64,000 nucleotides of DNA. Origin: a virus. Taxonomy: Duplodnaviria > Heunggongvirae > Uroviricota > Caudoviricetes. Where the stretch lies: IMG/VR virus record IMGVR_UViG_2925908680_000001; one strand, written 5' to 3'. The notes under the pieces are model-generated. The model was not told where the DNA came from and ran no database searches. It saw nothing but the letters and a program-made list of their open reading frames with translations. Both the position numbers and the translations under genes were made by a program. This document shows positions 1 through 45,400 of this stretch, piece after piece. The stretch's first letter is position 1, and the number at the start of each line of letters is the position of its first letter.

Positions 1-96
1 GTTATGCATCCCCTGTTACCGAATTGCAGCCAGGGCGCGGTGCGCCGAAAAGCATACGGAGGTGGAAGCCCTCGCCGGAGACGTACCCGGCACAGT

Positions 97-173
97 GGTG
101 GTGTAGCTCAGTAGGATAGAGCAGCAGCCTTCTAAGCTGTCGGTCGGTGGTTCGAATCCACCCACCATCGCCA
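97..173 (+). tRNA. tRNA-Arg (anticodon TCT)
   Basis: Cloverleaf by eye: 7-bp acceptor (one GU), anticodon loop cttctaa, T-loop ttcgaat, encoded CCA; resembles E. coli argU. Confidence 0.85.
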
Positions 174-178
174 CTTTA

Positions 179-265
179 GGGGAGTTAGTCCGTAGGGGTA
201 GCGGGGTAGACTGTAAATCTACTGTCATTGCGACTCGGGTGGTTCGACTCCATCACTCCCCACCA
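179..265 (+). tRNA. tRNA-Tyr (anticodon GTA), class II with long variable arm
   Basis: Perfect 7-bp acceptor ggggagt/actcccc, perfect anticodon stem gtaga/tctac with loop ctgtaaa, long variable arm, T-loop ttcgact, CCA; D-arm less regular. Confidence 0.7.
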
Positions 266-269
266 AATT

Positions 270-345
270 GCCGGTTTAGCTCAGTTGGTAGAGCAGTCGC
301 TTTGTAAGCGAATGGTCAGCGGTTCGATCCCGTTAACCGGCACCA
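270..345 (+). tRNA. tRNA-Thr (anticodon TGT)
   Basis: Acceptor gccggtt/aaccggc, D-arm gctcagttggtagagc, anticodon loop tttgtaa, T-loop ttcgatc, CCA. Confidence 0.85.
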
Positions 346-353
346 ACACAACA

Positions 354-427
354 GGTAAGAGCATTTGTAGAGTTCGACTCTCTACCGTGGGCTTTTTCCC
401 GCGATGCGAGCCATAAATGCTCTTACC
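354..427. repeat. Inverted-repeat element 1 (13-bp arms ggtaagagcattt / aaatgctcttacc) enclosing a T-arm-like hairpin
   Basis: Arms at 354-366 and 415-427; inner hairpin gtagagttcgactctctac; followed by conserved motif gttgtgatgaagtgc. Confidence 0.6.
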
Positions 428-574
428 GTTGTGATGAAGTGCAGCTCTTTGAAGCAACCAGAAGATAAGCATCTGGCTTCACAACATAAACCGCAGGAAC
501 GACCAATAAACGGTAGTCCGTATGGAGAACACCCCGTTGAGGAAGAGGCCTGGCCGGAACCGTAACCGGCACTA

Positions 575-664
575 CAATGTTGAGAACACTGGCGTAACGG
601 GGTCATATCCCAATCTACGAATAAATGTTGCGTTGCAGCGTGACAACCAGTGTTCTCAACATTG
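575..664. repeat. Inverted-repeat element 2 (perfect 18-bp arms, 54-bp spacer)
   Basis: caatgttgagaacactgg at 575-592 and exact reverse complement at 647-664; followed by attgtggtgaatgcgc. Confidence 0.7.
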
Positions 665-799
665 TGGTGAATGCGCAGGCTGATGCGCGAAAGACATTGC
701 AGCTATTGCGGAAAAGAGCTGTTCGGCGGGGCAATTAAACGCCCGTGAGAGTCTGAAATAACCGCAAGCCGGAGATCAGCACCGGTCGCCACAATAACG

Positions 800-886
800 G
801 GAGAGTAGGGAGCATGGTGCTCAAGCGGTCTTGAAAACCGTCCCATTGCGCAAGCGATGATGGTTCGATTCCATTACTCTCCGCCA
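800..886 (+). tRNA. tRNA-Ser (anticodon TGA), class II, atypical A at position 8
   Basis: Acceptor ggagagt/actctcc, anticodon stem gcggt/accgt with loop cttgaaa, long variable arm, T-loop ttcgatt, CCA; D-arm irregular. Confidence 0.65.
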
Positions 887-893
887 GTGCAAC

Positions 894-1011
894 GTTAAGA
901 GTATTTGGCTAATTAAGCGAATGCCGGAAGCAGAACCGGATCACCAAATGCGTACAGGCGTCATCGCCGCCCAGCCAGCCAAGTGCTCTTACCATTGCGG
1001 TGAATGCGGCT
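894..1011. repeat. Inverted-repeat element 3 (imperfect arms) plus conserved right-end motif
   Basis: gttaagagtatttgg at 894-908 vs ccaagtgctcttacc at 979-993; followed by attgcggtgaatgcggc, the same motif family as elements 1 and 2. Confidence 0.5.
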
Positions 1012-1369
1012 AAGCGCACGCGGAACAGTTAAAACAATCCTCCTTAGTGGTTAAGTCAAACATCCCGGCGTTAATTGTTAACTGGTTAACGTCACCTGGA
1101 GGCACCAGGCACCGCAATCTAATAAAGTTTCAAGCAATGGAGTTTTTGTTGTCAGACTTCAGATATAGATGGTTGTGGAAGGAGAGCCTGTGCATAGTGC
1201 AGTTATTTCTTCCGCTATTTGTCTGCTTTGTCATGCTTCCTGAGCTGAAATACGCAATTTCAGACACTTTAAGCACTATCGTTACTTTTGTGTTTTATCT
1301 TTACTTTGATTACTTATTGAGCACTAAAATCAATGAATTATCCGAGGAAATGCAAGGTGGCTGTAAGTG

Positions 1370-1498
1370 ATGAATTTTTGGGCGTTTGCCGATAAGAACC
1401 CTGGTTGGACATTTTTATTTCTGCTGGTGGTTGCATATGGGGTCGAGCAAGCGGCAAAAGCCTTACGCGGTTCTGGCAAAAAGCGTAAGCGGAATTAA
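1370..1498 (+). CDS. Small hydrophobic peptide (42 aa), hypothetical
   Basis: Hand-translated ORF MNFWAFADKNPGWTFLFLLVVAYGVEQAAKALRGSGKKRKRN: one predicted TM segment and a basic tail; below the ORF-track size cutoff. Confidence 0.3.
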   Translation: MNFWAFADKNPGWTFLFLLVVAYGVEQAAKALRGSGKKRKRN

Positions 1499-1507
1499 CA
1501 GTAATCT

Positions 1508-1583
1508 GGCCCTTTAGCTCAGTGGTTAGAGCAGGCGACTCATAATCGCACGGTCACCGGTTCAAATCCGGTAGGGGCCACCA
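1508..1583 (+). tRNA. tRNA with CAT anticodon, most like tRNA-Ile2 (ileX type)
   Basis: Near-identical to E. coli ileX as recalled (ggcccnttagctcagtggttagagcaggcgactcataatcgc...), CCA encoded; Met cannot be excluded. Confidence 0.85.
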
Positions 1584-2037
1584 TATTTGGTTGTAACACG
1601 GCGTATGGCACATGCGTCGTTAGCGGTCTGGTGTAGCTGTTAGGTACCTTACTAACACTGCATGGGCACATCAGGTAGCCGGAATGTGCAAGTCACCGCT
1701 GGAGGGATAGCGGACTCAGGGACTCACCATCCTGGCGATTCGGTGTGACAGCCGGAATAGCACGGCGCACAACAGGAAAAGGCGTTTAATTAACGCGAGC
1801 GCCGTTTCCGTTGTGGTAATTGCGGCTATGCGCTCGTGACGAAGCCATTTTCATTCACTACGTTCTGATAAGTGACGTCGCCAGGAGTGGCTAACCTGGC
1901 AGGTGGAGGCACCACCGCCACAACTCCTTTCAATTCATCATATAGCCGCTCAGGCTGTACCCCTTAATTAATACGAAGTTACGACATCACTACCGGCACT
2001 TCCGGGGGATAGTCGCGCGTGTAAAAAAGGAGACGTT

Positions 2038-2613
2038 ATGTTAATGGCGAACGATAACGCATATGCAGAAGAAGATCTCATTTTGAGTGACTTCATAGGG
2101 AAGCGGGAACGCTGGACCAAAAAGCGAGAGGAACTTTACGCCTCATTAGTTCGCAAAGGCGTCAATATCGAAACCGCACAGAGCGGTGATATGACAGTGG
2201 TAAGCGTGGGATTGCACGGTGTAAGCGTGTCAGCAATCAATCATGAGCCATACGTTGCGTTATCCGAGTCAATGGTAAGGTTAGTTAAGTTCCTGAAATA
2301 CACAGAAGCGAATAATGTAATCATTGGCAAAAAGAATATCCCTTTTTCCTCGGCTTTTTACTGGATGATGAAAGGGCTTGATGCCCGGCGGACATCATGG
2401 CCCAAAGGGAGCTATATATCGATGTTCCGTGGCAGTATTGGCAGCAAAGAAAAGCTCTTCGAATTCTTGCCGGAAGAGGCATTCGATATTGTGGAAGGGT
2501 GCGATGTGATGGTGATGCCTCGCCTGGTAATGATGAATGGGGATTTACAGGCGCAGACAGACTGGTTTGCAACTGGTGTGGATATAATCGCGACTGACTG
2601 GGAGGCTTTCTGA
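2038..2613 (+). CDS. Hypothetical protein with DUF2829-like C-terminal domain
   Basis: ORF track; C-terminal pattern FSSAFYWMMKGLDARRTSWPKG ... DLQAQTDWFATGVDIIATDWEAF fits the DUF2829 family signature as recalled; RBS ggagacg before ATG. Confidence 0.55.
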   Translation: MLMANDNAYAEEDLILSDFIGKRERWTKKREELYASLVRKGVNIETAQSGDMTVVSVGLHGVSVSAINHEPYVALSESMVRLVKFLKYTEANNVIIGKKNIPFSSAFYWMMKGLDARRTSWPKGSYISMFRGSIGSKEKLFEFLPEEAFDIVEGCDVMVMPRLVMMNGDLQAQTDWFATGVDIIATDWEAF

Positions 2614-3005
2614 TGTACGGGACTACCAAATTAAGCACTCAACAGGCCACCAATATGGAGTGGTCTATCGCTAACTGTAAGATCGTGTCATGCAATGCCA
2701 CGCGTACTGATGTGGGCCATAAAAGTACTATAACAGGCTATCTAGTAATGACCACCAGGGGGATGAGGGTTAGATTTCGCTGGAAAGCAGAGCAAGTAAC
2801 GCCATTCAGAGAGCCATCAATGCCGCTGCAGGTTGAGCAGGATTATCTATGTTTACCAGAAATAGATGGAGGAATGCTGGTGGAGTCTGATGGTAGTAAG
2901 GCTGATTTTGAAGCCAATTTGAAGCTGGCACAGGCCGTAATCAATAGTTATCGCGGAAAGTGGATCGCAAAAGTGAAACATGTTGTTCGTTTGTCTCGCT
3001 GGTAG
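2613..3005 (+). CDS. Hypothetical protein
   Basis: ORF track; start overlaps upstream stop (ATGA coupling). Confidence 0.5.
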   Translation: MYGTTKLSTQQATNMEWSIANCKIVSCNATRTDVGHKSTITGYLVMTTRGMRVRFRWKAEQVTPFREPSMPLQVEQDYLCLPEIDGGMLVESDGSKADFEANLKLAQAVINSYRGKWIAKVKHVVRLSRW

Positions 3006-3023
3006 CGTTAGGTGTTTAATATT

Positions 3024-3040
3024 AATTTTCTAATATAATC
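3024..3040 (+). promoter_or_regulatory. Operator-like motif aattttctaatataatc (C1-operator-like family)
   Basis: Member of a recurring TTTCTAAYA motif; lies about 75 bp upstream of ORF 3114. Confidence 0.4.
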
Positions 3041-3113
3041 ATCTTTTTACCAGTCTATACAGTTTTAACATTCTCATTATCATCCCCTCGGTCATTTCCT
3101 GCCCGGGGGATTA

Positions 3114-26342: not shown

Positions 26343-26446
26343 AATACTGACTGTTGCGCCCTGGCATTATCGTGGGGTATATTTCTACGGCACCTTAGAA
26401 AAACGGGTGCCGGGATTGGAACCCCGGATAATGCAAAAGGCGACAC

Positions 26447-26470
26447 AGACGCCGAAAGCGTCTTTTTTTG
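26447..26470 (+). terminator. Rho-independent terminator
   Basis: gacgc-cgaaa-gcgtc followed by ttttttt. Confidence 0.65.
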
Positions 26471-26499
26471 TGTCATGCCATCGCACAGCCATACGTAGC

Positions 26500-26625
26500 G
26501 TTTAGCTCAGAGATCAATGGTAGTGCTGGCTGGGCTGCCGAAAGGCAGGCCGGTTCCCTTTTGCGCCGGTAGTTCCAACCCAGTCAGTGCTACCGCCATT
26601 GAGATTGGAACCTCACGCGGTAGCT
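26500..26625 (+). ncRNA. Putative c4-like antisense RNA / target region of immunity module 1
   Basis: Structured leader upstream of icd; ggttccaa segments complementary to ttggaacc near the icd RBS; by analogy to P1 immI. Confidence 0.3.
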
Positions 26626-45081: not shown

Positions 45082-45289
45082 AATTTGAATTTTCGAACAT
45101 AAATAATAAAATAAATCATCAAAAATTTGATGTTGATCTTCCATGTTTTCAGGCTTATATTCACGCCGTCGTAGCAAATTCTGCGACCGGGTTTAGCAGC
45201 CTGAATGATTGTGCGGACAACCGCAGATTTCCGATATTGCGGTATTTTTGTGTCCGTAAACCGCGTTACGCCCGAATTATGGTGGGGCG

Positions 45290-45400
45290 TGATGGGGAGG
45301 CTTCGGCCTGCTGGTTTCACAATCGCCAGTCTGCTAACCCCGTCACGTCCTGCCACCCGTTTAGCAGCGGGTAGCAGGTTGTTAAACCTGATTGTGAGGC
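45290..45400 (+). ncRNA. Putative c4-like antisense RNA / target region of immunity module 2
   Basis: tcacaatc (45317-45324) complementary to gattgtga (45390-45397) at the icd RBS; ctgctaacc (45331-45339) complementary to gtttagcag (45359-45367). Confidence 0.35.

What the first reader, a model, noticed from the sequence alone, without database searches (positions are those of the whole stretch)
1..1600. Five-tRNA cluster interspersed with three related inverted-repeat elements ending in a conserved 25-nt motif
tRNA-Arg, -Tyr and -Thr are packed with 4-5 nt spacers, followed by tRNA-Ser (A at position 8, irregular D-arm) and tRNA-Ile2/Met. Between them, three long inverted-repeat units each end in CTYWWCMRTTGYGRTGAAKKGC (about 420-445, 653-678, 986-1011), and unit 1 encloses a T-arm-like hairpin that looks like a tRNA remnant. 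They may be processing signals, small RNAs or miniature mobile elements that shuffle tRNA cassettes.
Basis: seen in the sequence. Interest (0 to 1): 0.5.

Follow-up and report, generated by a model that had tools for sequence, protein, structure and literature searches.

The report
Phage tRNA cluster punctuated by RNA hairpins
The start of this P1-like phage-plasmid window is a long untranslated early transcript carrying five tRNAs, four members of an undescribed conserved RNA hairpin family and small-RNA-like modules; the hairpins are real RNA structures found across enterobacterial phages, but their function is still only inferred.

Summary
ARAGORN calls all five tRNAs. The three inverted repeats are real, and a fourth lies at 1768-1815. 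The window is P1-like (closest phage D6), and 1-2037 corresponds to the leader of the P1 ban operon.

The units belong to a hairpin family with a conserved 12-bp base, covarying upper stem pairs and at least 25 unrelated apical inserts. Covariation (13 of 20 pairs compensatory, 0/500 shuffles) and a G.U:A.C ratio of 67:2 show that the tRNA-sense strand folds, so selection acts on RNA.

The family occurs in:
- P1, where GenBank annotates plp and upl antisense over it;
- D6 and P7;
- SSU5-like phage-plasmids;
- yfdP-type chromosomal prophages, which lack tRNAs at that site;
- one viral contig, as a unit with its own predicted promoter and terminator.

My best inference, untested, is that the hairpins are RNase III-type punctuation sites that release the tRNAs and sRNA modules. 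A MITE reading is not supported. The "odd" tRNA-Ser is a known (8/4) tRNA-Ser.

Overall: a new, unannotated RNA motif of moderate interest.

The parts
1..96 (+). End of an upstream leader module. It contains the hairpin GCCGGAGACGTACCCGG followed by CAC (74-93), which abuts tRNA-Arg. The promoter lies outside the window.
   Evidence: Repeat families D6 and D8. Colinear with D6 L001 1501-1595. In P1 this operon starts at the C1-controlled Pban promoter, about 650 nt upstream of the first tRNA.
97..173 (+). tRNA-Arg (anticodon TCT)
   Evidence: ARAGORN. Rfam tRNA model, 70 bits. 83% identical to the rV5 tRNA-Arg.
179..265 (+). tRNA-Tyr (anticodon GTA), class II
   Evidence: ARAGORN. Rfam tRNA model, 41.9 bits against a gathering score of 29.
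270..345 (+). tRNA-Thr (anticodon TGT)
   Evidence: ARAGORN. Rfam tRNA model, 67.2 bits.
347..433 (+). The stem is CACAAC, a bulged A, then GGTAAGAGCATTT, pairing with AAATGCTCTTACC and GTTGTG. The interior contains a T-arm-like hairpin at 367-385. H1 starts 1 nt after the CCA of tRNA-Thr.
   Evidence: Fold energy -43.1 kcal/mol, z -5.8. 21 pairs. Compensatory stem variants in D6, P7 and SSU5-like loci. T-arm enrichment.
430..486 (+). Short tail module. GUGAUGAAG pairs with CUUCACAAC, enclosing a small hairpin at 458-476.
   Evidence: Fold. The same sequence follows hairpin types A, B, C and D in P1-like and SSU5-like loci.
487..569 (+). Spacer with possible tRNA relics. TAGTCCGTATGG at 514-525 resembles the 5' part of tRNA-Tyr. 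The hairpin GCCGGAACCGTAACCGG followed by CAC at 553-572 resembles the 3' end of tRNA-Thr.
   Evidence: Repeat families D17, D6 and D8. Rfam gives no tRNA hit here at E<=10, so the relic reading is inference.
570..669 (+).
   Evidence: Inverted repeat I1, 96% complementary. Fold energy -55 kcal/mol, z -6.8. 26 sequence variants in 90 copies.
662..795 (+). STnc100-like module a. It has a closing stem UUGUGGUG/CGCCACAA, a 5' small hairpin GCGCA..UGCGC and a 3' hairpin CCGGA..ACCGG. It is 95% identical to the leader of yfdP-type chromosomal prophages.
   Evidence: Fold. blastn match to L131 2993-3139, 95.2%. Matches on 744 chromosomal places in E. coli genomes. No Rfam hit of its own.
800..886 (+). 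(8/4) tRNA-Ser (anticodon TGA). It has an 8-bp acceptor stem, a 4-bp T stem, a 5-bp D stem with a 3-nt loop, a long variable arm and G73.
   Evidence: ARAGORN. Rfam tRNA-Sec model 43.5 bits, below the threshold of 47. Read directly from the sequence. This kind of tRNA is described in phages by Mukai et al. (PMC5389517).
889..998 (+). It is a hybrid: the 5' arm is of the GTTAAG type and the 3' arm of the CTTACC type, giving two mismatches at the base. The interior (about 913-975) is about 83% identical to the region downstream of tRNA-Ser in phage rV5, where a different stem encloses it.
   Evidence: Fold z -2.1. rV5 sequence. blastn window 800-975 against L004 2774-2943, 82.8%.
996..1116 (+). 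STnc100-like module b. The closing stem is UGCGGUG/CACCGCA and the 3' hairpin is CCUGGAGGCACCAGG.
   Evidence: Rfam RF02076, 39.4 bits against a gathering score of 47, E 2.4e-7, model positions 31-147. Fold.
1367..1498 (+). Small ORF of 43 aa in the position of P1 tciC. A 107-aa ORF at 1047-1370 precedes it. These are the only plausible coding stretch inside the finding.
   Evidence: ORF list. No Pfam hit for either ORF. P1 and D6 annotation of tciB and tciC at the colinear position.
1508..1583 (+). tRNA with CAT anticodon (Ile2 type).
   Evidence: ARAGORN calls it Met(cat). Rfam tRNA model, 68.2 bits. The P1 homologue is annotated tRNA-Ile2, 89% identical to ileX.
1585..1765 (+). Conserved leader segment X. 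It is shared with the P1 leader upstream of ban and with the start of the yfdP-prophage leader.
   Evidence: blastn: 83% to P1 L002 3170-3448 and 74% to L131 2699-2861.
1768..1815 (+). The arms are CACAACAGGAAAAGGCG and CGCCGTTTCCGTTGTG.
   Evidence: Repeat families D3 and D9. Fold. Model R1 scores 42.1 bits on the + strand and 22.2 bits on the - strand.
1812..1925 (+). STnc100-like module c. The closing stem is UGUGGU/GCCACA and the 3' hairpin is GGUGGAGGCACCACC.
   Evidence: Fold. Repeat family D10. The assignment rests on architecture only; there is no Rfam hit.
2038..2613 (+). First ORF downstream of the noncoding leader. It carries a Tad2-like (anti-Thoeris) domain. Listed here for context.
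   Evidence: Pfam PF11195, 39 bits against a cutoff of 25.

Best explanation
Window 1-2037 is the mostly untranslated leader of an early operon of a P1-like phage-plasmid. In P1 the equivalent operon is the ban operon, repressed by C1. It is transcribed left to right as one long RNA made of independently folding modules whose 5' and 3' ends pair:
- five tRNAs;
- four hairpins of one family (H1-H4);
- three or four STnc100-like modules.

Each hairpin has a sequence-conserved 12-bp base (CACAAC + GKTRAG pairing with CTYAMC + GTTGTG). Above that come 7-10 further pairs that covary freely, and then an apical insert of 10-100 nt that is swapped between unrelated types.

Shown:
- The hairpins are selected as structures of the tRNA-sense strand.
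- They are a widespread family.
- They start 0-2 nt after a tRNA CCA end or after a module end.
- They end exactly where an STnc100-like module begins.

Inferred:
- The stems of 18-23 bp are cut by host RNase III or a similar double-strand-specific activity. This would punctuate the precursor and free the tRNA 3' ends for trimming.
- The same cut would create the 5' ends of the sRNA-like modules, which in lambdoid prophages are made by a promoter instead.
- It would also release the few nucleotides that the hairpin shares with the closing stem of the next module.

The repeated conserved ends also serve, as a by-product, as homology for recombination that shuffles modules between phages.
For: Context:
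- The region is colinear with D6, P7 and P1.
- P1 annotation places Pban and the C1 operator upstream.
- There is no sigma-70-like promoter in 1-2200; the two weak terminator-like matches there are no more than the shuffles give.

Structure:
- Fold z-scores are -5.8 and -6.8 on the + strand and weaker on the - strand.
- In 32 distinct scaffolds, 96.4% of cells are paired and 13 of 20 pairs change on both sides. No shuffle out of 500 reached these values, and slid controls give 35-54% pairing.
- G.U pairs number 67 against 2 A.C mismatches on the + strand.
- All hairpins are co-oriented with the tRNAs in 130 loci.

RNA level:
- L136 has a predicted promoter (10 of 12 consensus positions), then three hairpins plus a tail module, then a predicted intrinsic terminator, with no ORF or tRNA.

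Junction logic:
- Hairpins begin 0-2 nt after CCA.
- The tail is the 5' start of STnc100.
- Canonical STnc100 starts at that same sequence, directly downstream of its own promoter (primer sequence in PMC12370729).
- Three window segments fold to the STnc100 architecture, and their closing stems overlap the hairpin 3' arms by 4-8 nt.

Stem length of 18-23 bp meets the established requirement for E. coli RNase III (own knowledge). Precedents, also from own knowledge:
- the T7 early RNase III sites;
- the lambda N leader;
- rrn operons;
- RNase III- and RNase E-dependent release of DicF from a prophage operon;
- RNase III involvement in T4 tRNA-cluster processing.
Against: - No cleavage or transcript data exist for these elements, and I found none in the literature.
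- RNase III needs little sequence specificity, so it does not obviously explain why the basal 12 bp are conserved in sequence.
- H3 and H4 have interrupted stems and weak z-scores (-2.1 and -2.0).
- Some loci carry hybrid units whose arms no longer pair, so not every copy is maintained.
- Several hairpins are adjacent to neither a tRNA nor an sRNA module. An example is types A and B in tandem.
- The L136 unit contains three hairpins for a single tail module, which is more than punctuation would need.
- The hairpins for the covariation count were picked by a pairing-based scan, so the percentage paired is inflated by selection. The compensatory-change counts are not.
Confidence: 0.45

Rival explanations
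1. The hairpins are themselves the product. They would be stable small RNAs with a constant stem that serves as scaffold and processing handle, and a variable apical domain that gives specificity. They might act as decoys or regulators, possibly anti-defence, expressed early together with phage tRNAs.
For: - The L136 transcription unit, with its own predicted promoter and terminator, encodes only hairpins plus a tail module.
- There are at least 25 discrete, unrelated interior types on one scaffold.
- The H3 interior is conserved between rV5 and the window although the stem is replaced.
- Some interiors mimic tRNA T-arms.
- The operon also carries tRNAs and a Tad2-like gene.
- The basal 12 bp are conserved in sequence, which suggests a specific binding partner.
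Against: - No target, binding partner or phenotype is known.
- CRISPRi knock-down of the overlapping P1 genes plp and upl scored as non-essential (PMC10695390).
- Variation within a type is low and gives no sign of diversifying selection.
- Hybrid, non-pairing units are tolerated.
- This reading is compatible with the best explanation rather than exclusive of it.
Confidence: 0.25
2. The elements act at the DNA level. They would be miniature inverted-repeat transposable elements, or attC-like folded recombination sites that move tRNA cassettes.
For: - Long inverted repeats with conserved ends.
- The ends ...AAC and GTT... resemble the integron attC R''/R' boxes (RYYYAAC/GTTRRRY).
- A bulged A follows the first 6 bp in one subfamily.
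- Unit length of 48-137 nt is like that of attC sites.
- Module order is combinatorial among loci.
- The same hairpin type is found with different tails, for example in L088.
Against: - The hairpins have a single orientation, always that of the tRNAs.
- There are no copies elsewhere in the 64-kb window, and none occur outside these leaders.
- No transposase or integron integrase is annotated in the D6, P7 and P1 stretches fetched, which extend about 1.5 kb either side of the match.
- The RYYY and RRRY parts of the attC consensus are not met: CACAAC/GTTGTG contains A and T at those positions.
- I did not look for target-site duplications.
- A predicted promoter and terminator frame the unit in L136.
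- Hybrid junctions lie in shared sequence, as expected of homologous recombination.
- The G.T excess on one strand would also fit a folded top DNA strand, so that argument alone does not exclude the attC-like version.
Confidence: 0.07
3. The hairpins are cis-acting leader structures that keep RNA polymerase going through a long untranslated RNA. They would either work like the put RNAs of HK022 (processive antitermination) or passively deny Rho a loading site.
For: - They lie in early-operon leaders directly downstream of repressor-controlled promoters in P1 and in yfdP-type prophages.
- In L136 the first hairpin starts a few nucleotides after the predicted transcription start.
- The leader has more than 1 kb without translation.
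- G is at least as frequent as C along it, so it is not rut-like.
Against: - put RNAs are two-stem, roughly 70-nt elements with defined bulges (PMC9378689). These are single hairpins with variable tops, repeated many times.
- The SSU5-like and rV5 copies sit inside tRNA clusters rather than at operon starts.
- Passive anti-Rho structure would not need a conserved base sequence.
Confidence: 0.1
4. The units are neutral relics: decayed tRNA genes and duplicated junk in a fast-recombining region, or coding sequence of the minus-strand genes plp and upl annotated in P1.
For: - T-arm-like hairpins occur in 3 of 25 interiors.
- tRNA-like fragments lie in the spacers (families D17 and D8).
- P1 GenBank annotates plp and upl here.
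- The region is dispensable in the P1 CRISPRi screen.
Against: - Compensatory changes at 13 of 20 stem pairs and the 67:2 G.U:A.C asymmetry are not expected of neutral decay.
- The family is conserved at 74-95% identity in otherwise unrelated phages and prophages.
- The plp ORF is intact in only 28 of 125 related loci and is broken in the window.
- plp also overlaps the end of tRNA-Thr in antisense.
Confidence: 0.08

Closest known systems
RNase III processing hairpins in polycistronic phage and rRNA transcripts (T7 early sites R0.3-R1.3, the lambda N-leader site, rrn operon stems, DicF release in the Qin prophage)
   Same: - Hairpins of about 20 bp placed between functional units of one long early transcript.
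- The copies within a genome are related in sequence.
- The stem is constrained while the top is free.
- Neighbouring small RNAs would be released by cleavage.
   Different: - No cleavage has been shown here.
- The T7 sites have a characteristic internal loop; these stems are almost perfect.
- The basal 12 bp are conserved across unrelated phages.
- The apical parts are swapped between discrete types.
STnc100 / PasD prophage sRNA family (Rfam RF02076)
   Same: - Window 996-1116 aligns to model positions 31-147 with the same closing stem, 5' small hairpin and 3' CCNGG hairpin followed by CACC.
- Like STnc100 in prophages, the P1/D6 copy lies next to a TerB gene.
   Different: - The score is below the gathering threshold (39.4 against 47 bits).
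- The module has no promoter or terminator of its own and is embedded in a longer transcript behind a hairpin.
- The other two modules (662-795 and 1812-1925) resemble STnc100 only in architecture.
tRNA clusters of P1-family phages (P1 tRNA-Asn, Thr and Ile2; D6; P7) and of rV5-like and SSU5-like phages
   Same: - Same position and order as in P1, D6 and P7.
- Thr, Ser and Ile2 are shared with D6 and P7.
- Arg, Tyr and Ser are about 83% identical to those of rV5.
   Different: - This window has Arg in place of Asn, plus Tyr, giving five tRNAs where P1 has three.
- The published annotations list no RNA elements between the tRNAs.
(8/4) tRNA-Ser / allo-tRNA (Mukai et al. 2017, PMC5389517)
   Same: - 8-bp acceptor stem and 4-bp T stem.
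- Long variable arm and G73.
- A serine anticodon.
- Found in a phage tRNA cluster.
   Different: That paper does not mention enterobacterial phage-plasmids. Aminoacylation is untested here.
Integron attC sites
   Same: - Imperfect palindromes of 50-140 nt whose ends carry ...AAC and GTT....
- The middle is variable.
- The copies form an array with a single orientation relative to the cargo.
- One strand is favoured for folding.
   Different: - There is no integron integrase, attI or Pc.
- The full RYYYAAC/GTTRRRY consensus is not met.
- One copy is framed by a predicted promoter and terminator.
- Many units have no cargo gene.
Stable RNAs species 1 and 2 (rnaC, rnaD) in the phage T4 tRNA cluster (own knowledge)
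   Same: Non-tRNA structured RNAs of unknown function that are co-transcribed and co-processed with phage tRNAs.
   Different: No sequence relationship was tested or is expected. The T4 RNAs are single genes, not a repeated family with a common stem.

Membership tests
tRNA (Rfam RF00005 / ARAGORN) | Cloverleaf scoring above the curated threshold, with an anticodon call | tested here: met
   Arg, Tyr, Thr and the CAT tRNA score 41.9-70 bits against a gathering score of 29. All five are called by ARAGORN.
(8/4) tRNA-Ser | 12-bp acceptor branch split 8/4, long variable arm, G73 and a serine anticodon | tested here: met
   Read from 800-886:
- acceptor stem GGAGAGUA/UACUCUCC;
- T stem AUGG/CCAU;
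- 6-bp variable arm;
- G at the discriminator position;
- anticodon UGA.

The tRNA-Sec model aligns it at 43.5 bits. Definition taken from PMC5389517.
(8/4) tRNA-Ser | Charged with serine and active in translation | not testable with these tools
   Needs an aminoacylation or suppression assay.
STnc100 sRNA (RF02076) | Score at or above the Rfam gathering threshold of 47 bits | tested here: not met
   39.4 bits, E 2.4e-7, and only model positions 31-147 of 206 are matched.
STnc100 sRNA (RF02076) | Consensus architecture: closing stem UGGUG/CACCA, 5' small hairpin, 3' CCNGG hairpin | tested here: met
   Alignment to the model. Folds of 662-795, 995-1116 and 1812-1925.
STnc100 sRNA (RF02076) | Independent gene with its own promoter and intrinsic terminator | tested here: not met
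   There is no sigma-70-like promoter in 1-2200, and neither of the two weak terminator-like matches there (1188-1202 on +, 1796-1782 on -) follows a module; their number equals the shuffle expectation. Canonical loci have both a promoter and a terminator.
RNase III substrate | About two turns (at least ~20 bp) of mostly uninterrupted double-stranded RNA | tested here: met
   - H2 has 23 bp.
- H1 has 21 pairs with one bulged A.
- H3 and H4 have 18-20 pairs with interruptions.
RNase III substrate | Staggered cleavage in the stem that depends on rnc | not testable with these tools
   No transcript-end data are available, and the literature searches found none.
MITE / small mobile element | Many dispersed copies in both orientations, with target-site duplications and a related interior | tested here: not met
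   - Copies occur only in these leaders and only in one orientation.
- The interiors are unrelated.
- Target-site duplications were not searched for.
Integron attC site | R''/R' boxes matching RYYYAAC/GTTRRRY | tested here: inconclusive
   The AAC and GTT triplets are invariant or nearly so. The flanking positions are CAC and GTG, which breaks the Y/R rule.
Integron attC site | Adjacent intI integrase, attI and cassette promoter | tested here: not met
   No integrase is annotated in the fetched stretches of D6, P1 or P7, which extend about 1.5 kb either side of the match. The ORFs next to the region in the window are Tad2-like and Lpa.
HK022 put antiterminator RNA | A roughly 70-nt two-stem RNA with defined bulges just downstream of an early promoter | tested here: not met
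   These are single hairpins of 48-137 nt with variable tops, repeated along the leader. The put description is from PMC9378689. The sequences themselves were not compared.
Any curated Rfam family (for the hairpins H1-H4) | A covariance-model match | tested here: not met
   Only chance-level microRNA-precursor hits fall on the hairpins at E<=10. Nothing was found in L131 or L136.

The most novel reading that the evidence does not exclude
The hairpins may be a new class of phage-encoded small RNAs built on a constant double-stranded scaffold that a host or phage factor reads over one helical turn. The apical cassettes would be exchangeable, and some mimic tRNA T-arms. They would be produced early, in arrays with replacement tRNAs and anti-defence genes, to neutralise or mislead RNA-directed host defences or to reprogramme host RNA metabolism. 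On this reading the tRNAs, hairpins and sRNA modules together form a portable noncoding anti-defence island shared by P1-like, SSU5-like, rV5-like and yfdP-type phages.
Probability: 0.15. Interest if true: 0.8.

Novelty: new variant of a known kind. Interest (0 to 1): 0.5.

Why it matters
- It would replace two long-standing hypothetical P1 genes, plp and upl, with a conserved structured-RNA family. This affects the annotation of more than a thousand P1-like and SSU5-like plasmids and hundreds of E. coli prophages.
- It would show that the early leaders of these phages are polycistronic arrays of noncoding RNAs (tRNAs, hairpins and STnc100-like sRNAs). It also gives a concrete, testable model of how such arrays are cut into working parts.
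- The same region carries tRNAs of the kinds used against tRNA-cleaving defences, and a Tad2-like gene. The hairpins are therefore reasonable candidates for RNA-level functions in phage-host conflict.
- The conserved ends explain how tRNA and RNA modules are exchanged among unrelated phages.

Tried and rejected
- **Rfam on the hairpins.** Permissive thresholds gave only chance microRNA-like hits.
- **Covariance model R1.** It was built from stems with the interior replaced by GAAA. It cannot span long interiors and recovered only H4, so I used my own pairing scan instead.
Taken literally it matches one copy only. A 14-mer core with 2 mismatches is not above chance across the window (10 found, 7 expected). 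Only the corrected 20-mer is specific.
- **Intact tRNAs enclosed by the conserved stems.** I looked for them to test a "tRNA inside a processing stem" origin. Six loci with long interiors had no tRNA within 1.5 kb, so this was dropped as anything more than speculation.
- **boxA (nut/rrn) resemblance.** GCTCTTAC in the 3' arm resembles boxA. I rejected this because other stem variants (TACCCTTACC, GTTCTCAAC, GATCTTACC) lack it and the sequence is base-paired.
- **Small ORFs starting at the ATG in the tails.** Rejected because there is no usable ribosome-binding spacing and no conservation; H4 has no ATG, and the rV5 copy lacks the ATG that opens the 30-aa ORF (921-1013) inside the H3 interior.
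- **Minus-strand coding (plp/upl).** Rejected.
- **Genome-collection scan with the exact scaffold.** It hit a single species representative and so said nothing about breadth.
- **Literature searches.** Searches for P1 transcript maps, for the motif strings and for phage-plasmid hairpins found nothing relevant. The 2004 P1 genome paper is not held.

Full report
**What the window is**

Bases 1-2100 match phage D6 best (91.5% identity over 76% of the query), then P7, P1 and more than a thousand P1-like plasmids. One E. coli plasmid is 97.7% identical over the full length. In P1 the colinear stretch is the ban operon. It starts at the C1-controlled promoter Pban and runs through a "dicF-like region", tRNA-Asn and tRNA-Thr, tciA/B/C and tRNA-Ile2 to ban. 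The window begins about 95 nt before the first tRNA, so the promoter lies outside it. Within 1-2200 there is no sigma-70-like promoter, and the two weak terminator-like matches are no more than chance gives. The only plausible coding stretch is 1047-1498. The next ORF (2038-2613) has a Tad2-like anti-Thoeris domain, and it is followed further on by Lpa.

**Checking the observation**

ARAGORN calls Arg(tct) 97-173, Tyr(gta) 179-265, Thr(tgt) 270-345, Ser(tga) 800-886 and a CAT tRNA at 1508-1583. Four of these pass the Rfam tRNA threshold.

The Ser gene is matched only by the tRNA-Sec model, at 43.5 bits against a threshold of 47. The acceptor stem has 8 bp (GGAGAGUA/UACUCUCC), the T stem 4 bp, and the D stem 5 bp with a 3-nt loop. 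There is a long variable arm and G73. That is the (8/4) tRNA-Ser architecture already described in phages (PMC5389517).

The three inverted repeats are real and fold far better than shuffles, with z-scores of -5.8 and -6.8 for units 1 and 2 and -2.1 for unit 3. The corrected 20-mer GYTCTYAMCRTTGYGRTGAA matches all three exactly, against 0.09 expected by chance.

**What the units are**

Each unit is a hairpin that begins CACAAC and ends GTTGTG. I collected relatives from several sources:
- phage and plasmid records;
- 120 viral contigs holding the 3' motif;
- six further viral contigs with long interiors;
- E. coli chromosomes.

Together these show one family. The basal 12 bp are conserved in sequence, in two interchangeable versions (GGTAAG/CTTACC and GTTGAG/CTCAAC). 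A bulged A follows the first 6 bp in one subfamily. The next 7-10 pairs differ from copy to copy yet remain paired. The apical 10-100 nt fall into at least 25 unrelated types.

On an alignment of 32 distinct scaffolds, 96.4% of cells are paired and 13 of 20 pairs show changes on both sides. No shuffle out of 500 reaches the observed values, and slid controls give 35-54% pairing. Even the outermost helix has a compensated variant, CACAGC/GCTGTG.

The hairpins for this count were found by a pairing-based scan, so the percentage paired is inflated by selection. The number of distinct compensated stems at homologous positions is not.

Wobble pairs are strongly one-sided: 67 G.U against 2 A.C on the tRNA-sense strand. 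The folds are more stable on that strand. Every hairpin in 130 loci is co-oriented with the tRNAs. The other 62 kb of the window contain none, and shuffled sequence gives none.

**Where else they occur**

The family occurs in:
- P1 itself, at L002 about 1755-1841, 1975-2074 and 2253-2331. GenBank annotates the minus-strand ORFs plp and upl there;
- D6, P7 and Ro157c2;
- SSU5-like phage-plasmids of E. coli, Klebsiella and Cronobacter, with five hairpins and four tRNAs in 1.6 kb of noncoding DNA;
- rV5 in part, where the interior of unit 3 is about 83% conserved but is enclosed by a completely different stem.

The plp ORF is intact in only 28 of 125 related loci and is broken in this window, so minus-strand coding is unlikely.

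The hairpins are not tied to tRNAs. 744 chromosomal places in 5,426 E. coli genomes match the 3' arm of unit 2 plus its tail. These lie in a noncoding leader of about 700 nt between a cI-like repressor gene and yfdPQR, and no tRNA is annotated there. That leader shares window 648-794 at 95% identity and 1585-1749 at 74%.

On contig L136 a good promoter match (TTGACA-18-TAAAGT) is followed within a few nucleotides by three hairpins and a tail module, and then by an intrinsic-terminator match. There is no ORF or tRNA in between, and the unit sits between tail genes like a moron. Together with the strand asymmetry, this places the function at the RNA level.

**The "25-nt motif" is a junction**

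Its first half is the 3' arm of the hairpin. Its second half (RTGAAKKGC) is the 5' start of the next module. Rfam's STnc100 model aligns to 996-1116 (39.4 bits, E 2.4e-7, below the gathering score of 47). The model's closing stem caUGGUG/CACCAug corresponds to UGCGGUG/CACCGCA in the window.

Canonical STnc100 begins with CATGGTGAATCCCCC (primer sequence in PMC12370729). In lambdoid prophages it has its own promoter and terminator and normally no upstream hairpin.

Segments 662-795 and 1812-1925 fold to the same plan: a closing stem, a 5' small hairpin, and a 3' CCNGG-type hairpin followed by CACC(R)CA. They have no Rfam hit, so their assignment rests on architecture alone.

In each case the hairpin's 3' arm and the next module's closing stem share 4-8 nt. 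The hairpins start 0-2 nt after a tRNA CCA.

**How it most likely works**

The leader is a string of modules, each closed by pairing of its own ends, with almost no spacer between them. The established property of E. coli RNase III is cleavage of about two turns of double-stranded RNA. H1 (21 bp) and H2 (23 bp) meet that requirement, and H3 and H4 come close. Precedents for RNase III punctuation of phage and prophage polycistronic RNAs include the T7 early sites, the lambda N leader, rrn operons, DicF release and the T4 tRNA cluster (own knowledge).

I therefore infer that the hairpins are cut near their base. This would free the tRNA 3' ends for trimming. It would also create the 5' ends of the STnc100-like modules, which elsewhere are made by a promoter.

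This step is inference (confidence about 0.45). That the elements are selected RNA structures in a polycistronic leader I hold at about 0.85.

Several points count against the RNase III model:
- There are no transcript data.
- The sequence conservation of the basal 12 bp is unexplained.
- Some hairpins have no neighbour that needs releasing.
- Hybrid, non-pairing units are tolerated.

**Rivals**

- **Hairpins as the product.** The L136 unit, the discrete apical types and the anti-defence neighbourhood (phage tRNAs and a Tad2-like gene) keep open the reading that the hairpins are themselves trans-acting small RNAs (0.25).
- **DNA-level readings (MITE or attC-like).** These explain the shuffling: about 60 module orders occur among 130 loci. 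They fail on orientation, on distribution and on the absence of an annotated recombinase in the stretches fetched (0.07). Hybrid junctions sit in shared sequence, as homologous recombination predicts.
- **put-like antitermination or anti-Rho structure (0.1).** This fits the leader position but not the architecture.
- **Neutral relics or minus-strand coding (0.08).** These are contradicted by the covariation and by the ORF decay.

The tRNA-remnant idea for unit 1 is supported in a limited sense. Canonical T-arm-like hairpins occur in 3 of 25 interior types, against 0.05 expected. No intact tRNA was found inside a stem.

**Novelty**

The tRNA cluster, the (8/4) tRNA-Ser and STnc100 are all known. 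The hairpin family is not in Rfam and is not annotated in any record I fetched. It was also absent from the searchable literature, including a search for the motif strings themselves. Its kind, structured punctuation in a phage early transcript, is known. Three features are new: the conserved base with exchangeable tops, the array with tRNAs and sRNA modules, and the spread across unrelated phages. I rate it a new variant of a known kind, with interest 0.5.

Noticed in passing
window 800-886: The tRNA-Ser(UGA) has the rare (8/4) architecture and looks like tRNA-Sec to Rfam. It scores 43.5 bits here. A variant in locus L028 scores 48 bits and so passes the tRNA-Sec gathering score of 47. Phage-plasmid copies may therefore be mis-annotated as selC.
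   Followed up: partly
window 2038-2613: The first ORF after the noncoding leader has a Tad2-like (Thoeris anti-defence 2) domain (PF11195, 39 bits). In P1 this position is occupied by ban. The operon thus combines phage tRNAs, structured RNAs and a candidate anti-defence protein.
   Followed up: partly
window 26390-26600 and 45155-45360: There are two separate C4 antisense RNA loci (76.7 and 70.5 bits). One lies beside an isrK-like RNA and the other beside c4-a1b1 target sites. This suggests two immI-type antirepressor control regions in one 64-kb window.
   Followed up: no
L002 (P1 NC_005856) 1720-2289: The P1 genes plp and upl are annotated on the minus strand across the end of tRNA-Thr and three of the hairpins. 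The plp ORF is intact in only 28 of 125 related loci, and its product is Cys-rich and of odd composition. They are probably not genes.
   Followed up: yes
L136 1956-2745 (minus strand): A self-contained transcription unit lies between phage tail genes. It consists of a predicted promoter, three hairpins of the family plus a tail module, and a predicted terminator. It has no ORF or tRNA and is arranged like a moron.
   Followed up: partly
L131 2600-3336 (E. coli O157:H7 chromosome); also L132, L134, L135 and L137: yfdP-type prophages carry a noncoding leader of about 0.7-1.3 kb between the cI-like repressor gene and yfdPQR. It contains family hairpins and segments 74-95% identical to window 648-794 and 1585-1749. 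There are 744 chromosomal matches in 5,426 E. coli genomes.
   Followed up: partly
L004 (phage rV5 DQ832317) 2963-3061: ARAGORN reports a 99-nt "tRNA-???" with a four-base anticodon call between tRNA-Ser and tRNA-Thr. It is not annotated in the record. rV5 also has a 30-bp AT-rich hairpin between tRNA-Tyr and tRNA-Ser (2679-2770).
   Followed up: no
window 74-93, 553-572, 768-793 (also 1094-1113 and 1900-1922): A recurrent short hairpin of the type GCCGGA-N6-8-CCGG is followed by CAC or CACCA. It ends each tail module and resembles the 3' end of tRNA-Thr (AACCGGCACCA). Two copies lie 3-6 nt before a tRNA, and the third directly abuts hairpin H2.
   Followed up: partly
L038, L047, L089 and similar loci (unit 2 / unit 3' hybrids): Some P1-like loci carry a fusion of the 5' half of unit 2 with the 3' half of the P1-type unit 3. 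The halves are joined within the shared interior GTAACGGGGTCATATCCCAATCTAC, and the two arms no longer pair. This is direct evidence of recombination between modules.
   Followed up: partly
window 1047-1498: Two small overlapping ORFs (107 aa and 43 aa, apparently hydrophobic by eye) occupy the position of P1 tciB/tciC. They have no Pfam match. The TerB gene (tciA) present in P1, P7 and D6 is absent here.
   Followed up: no
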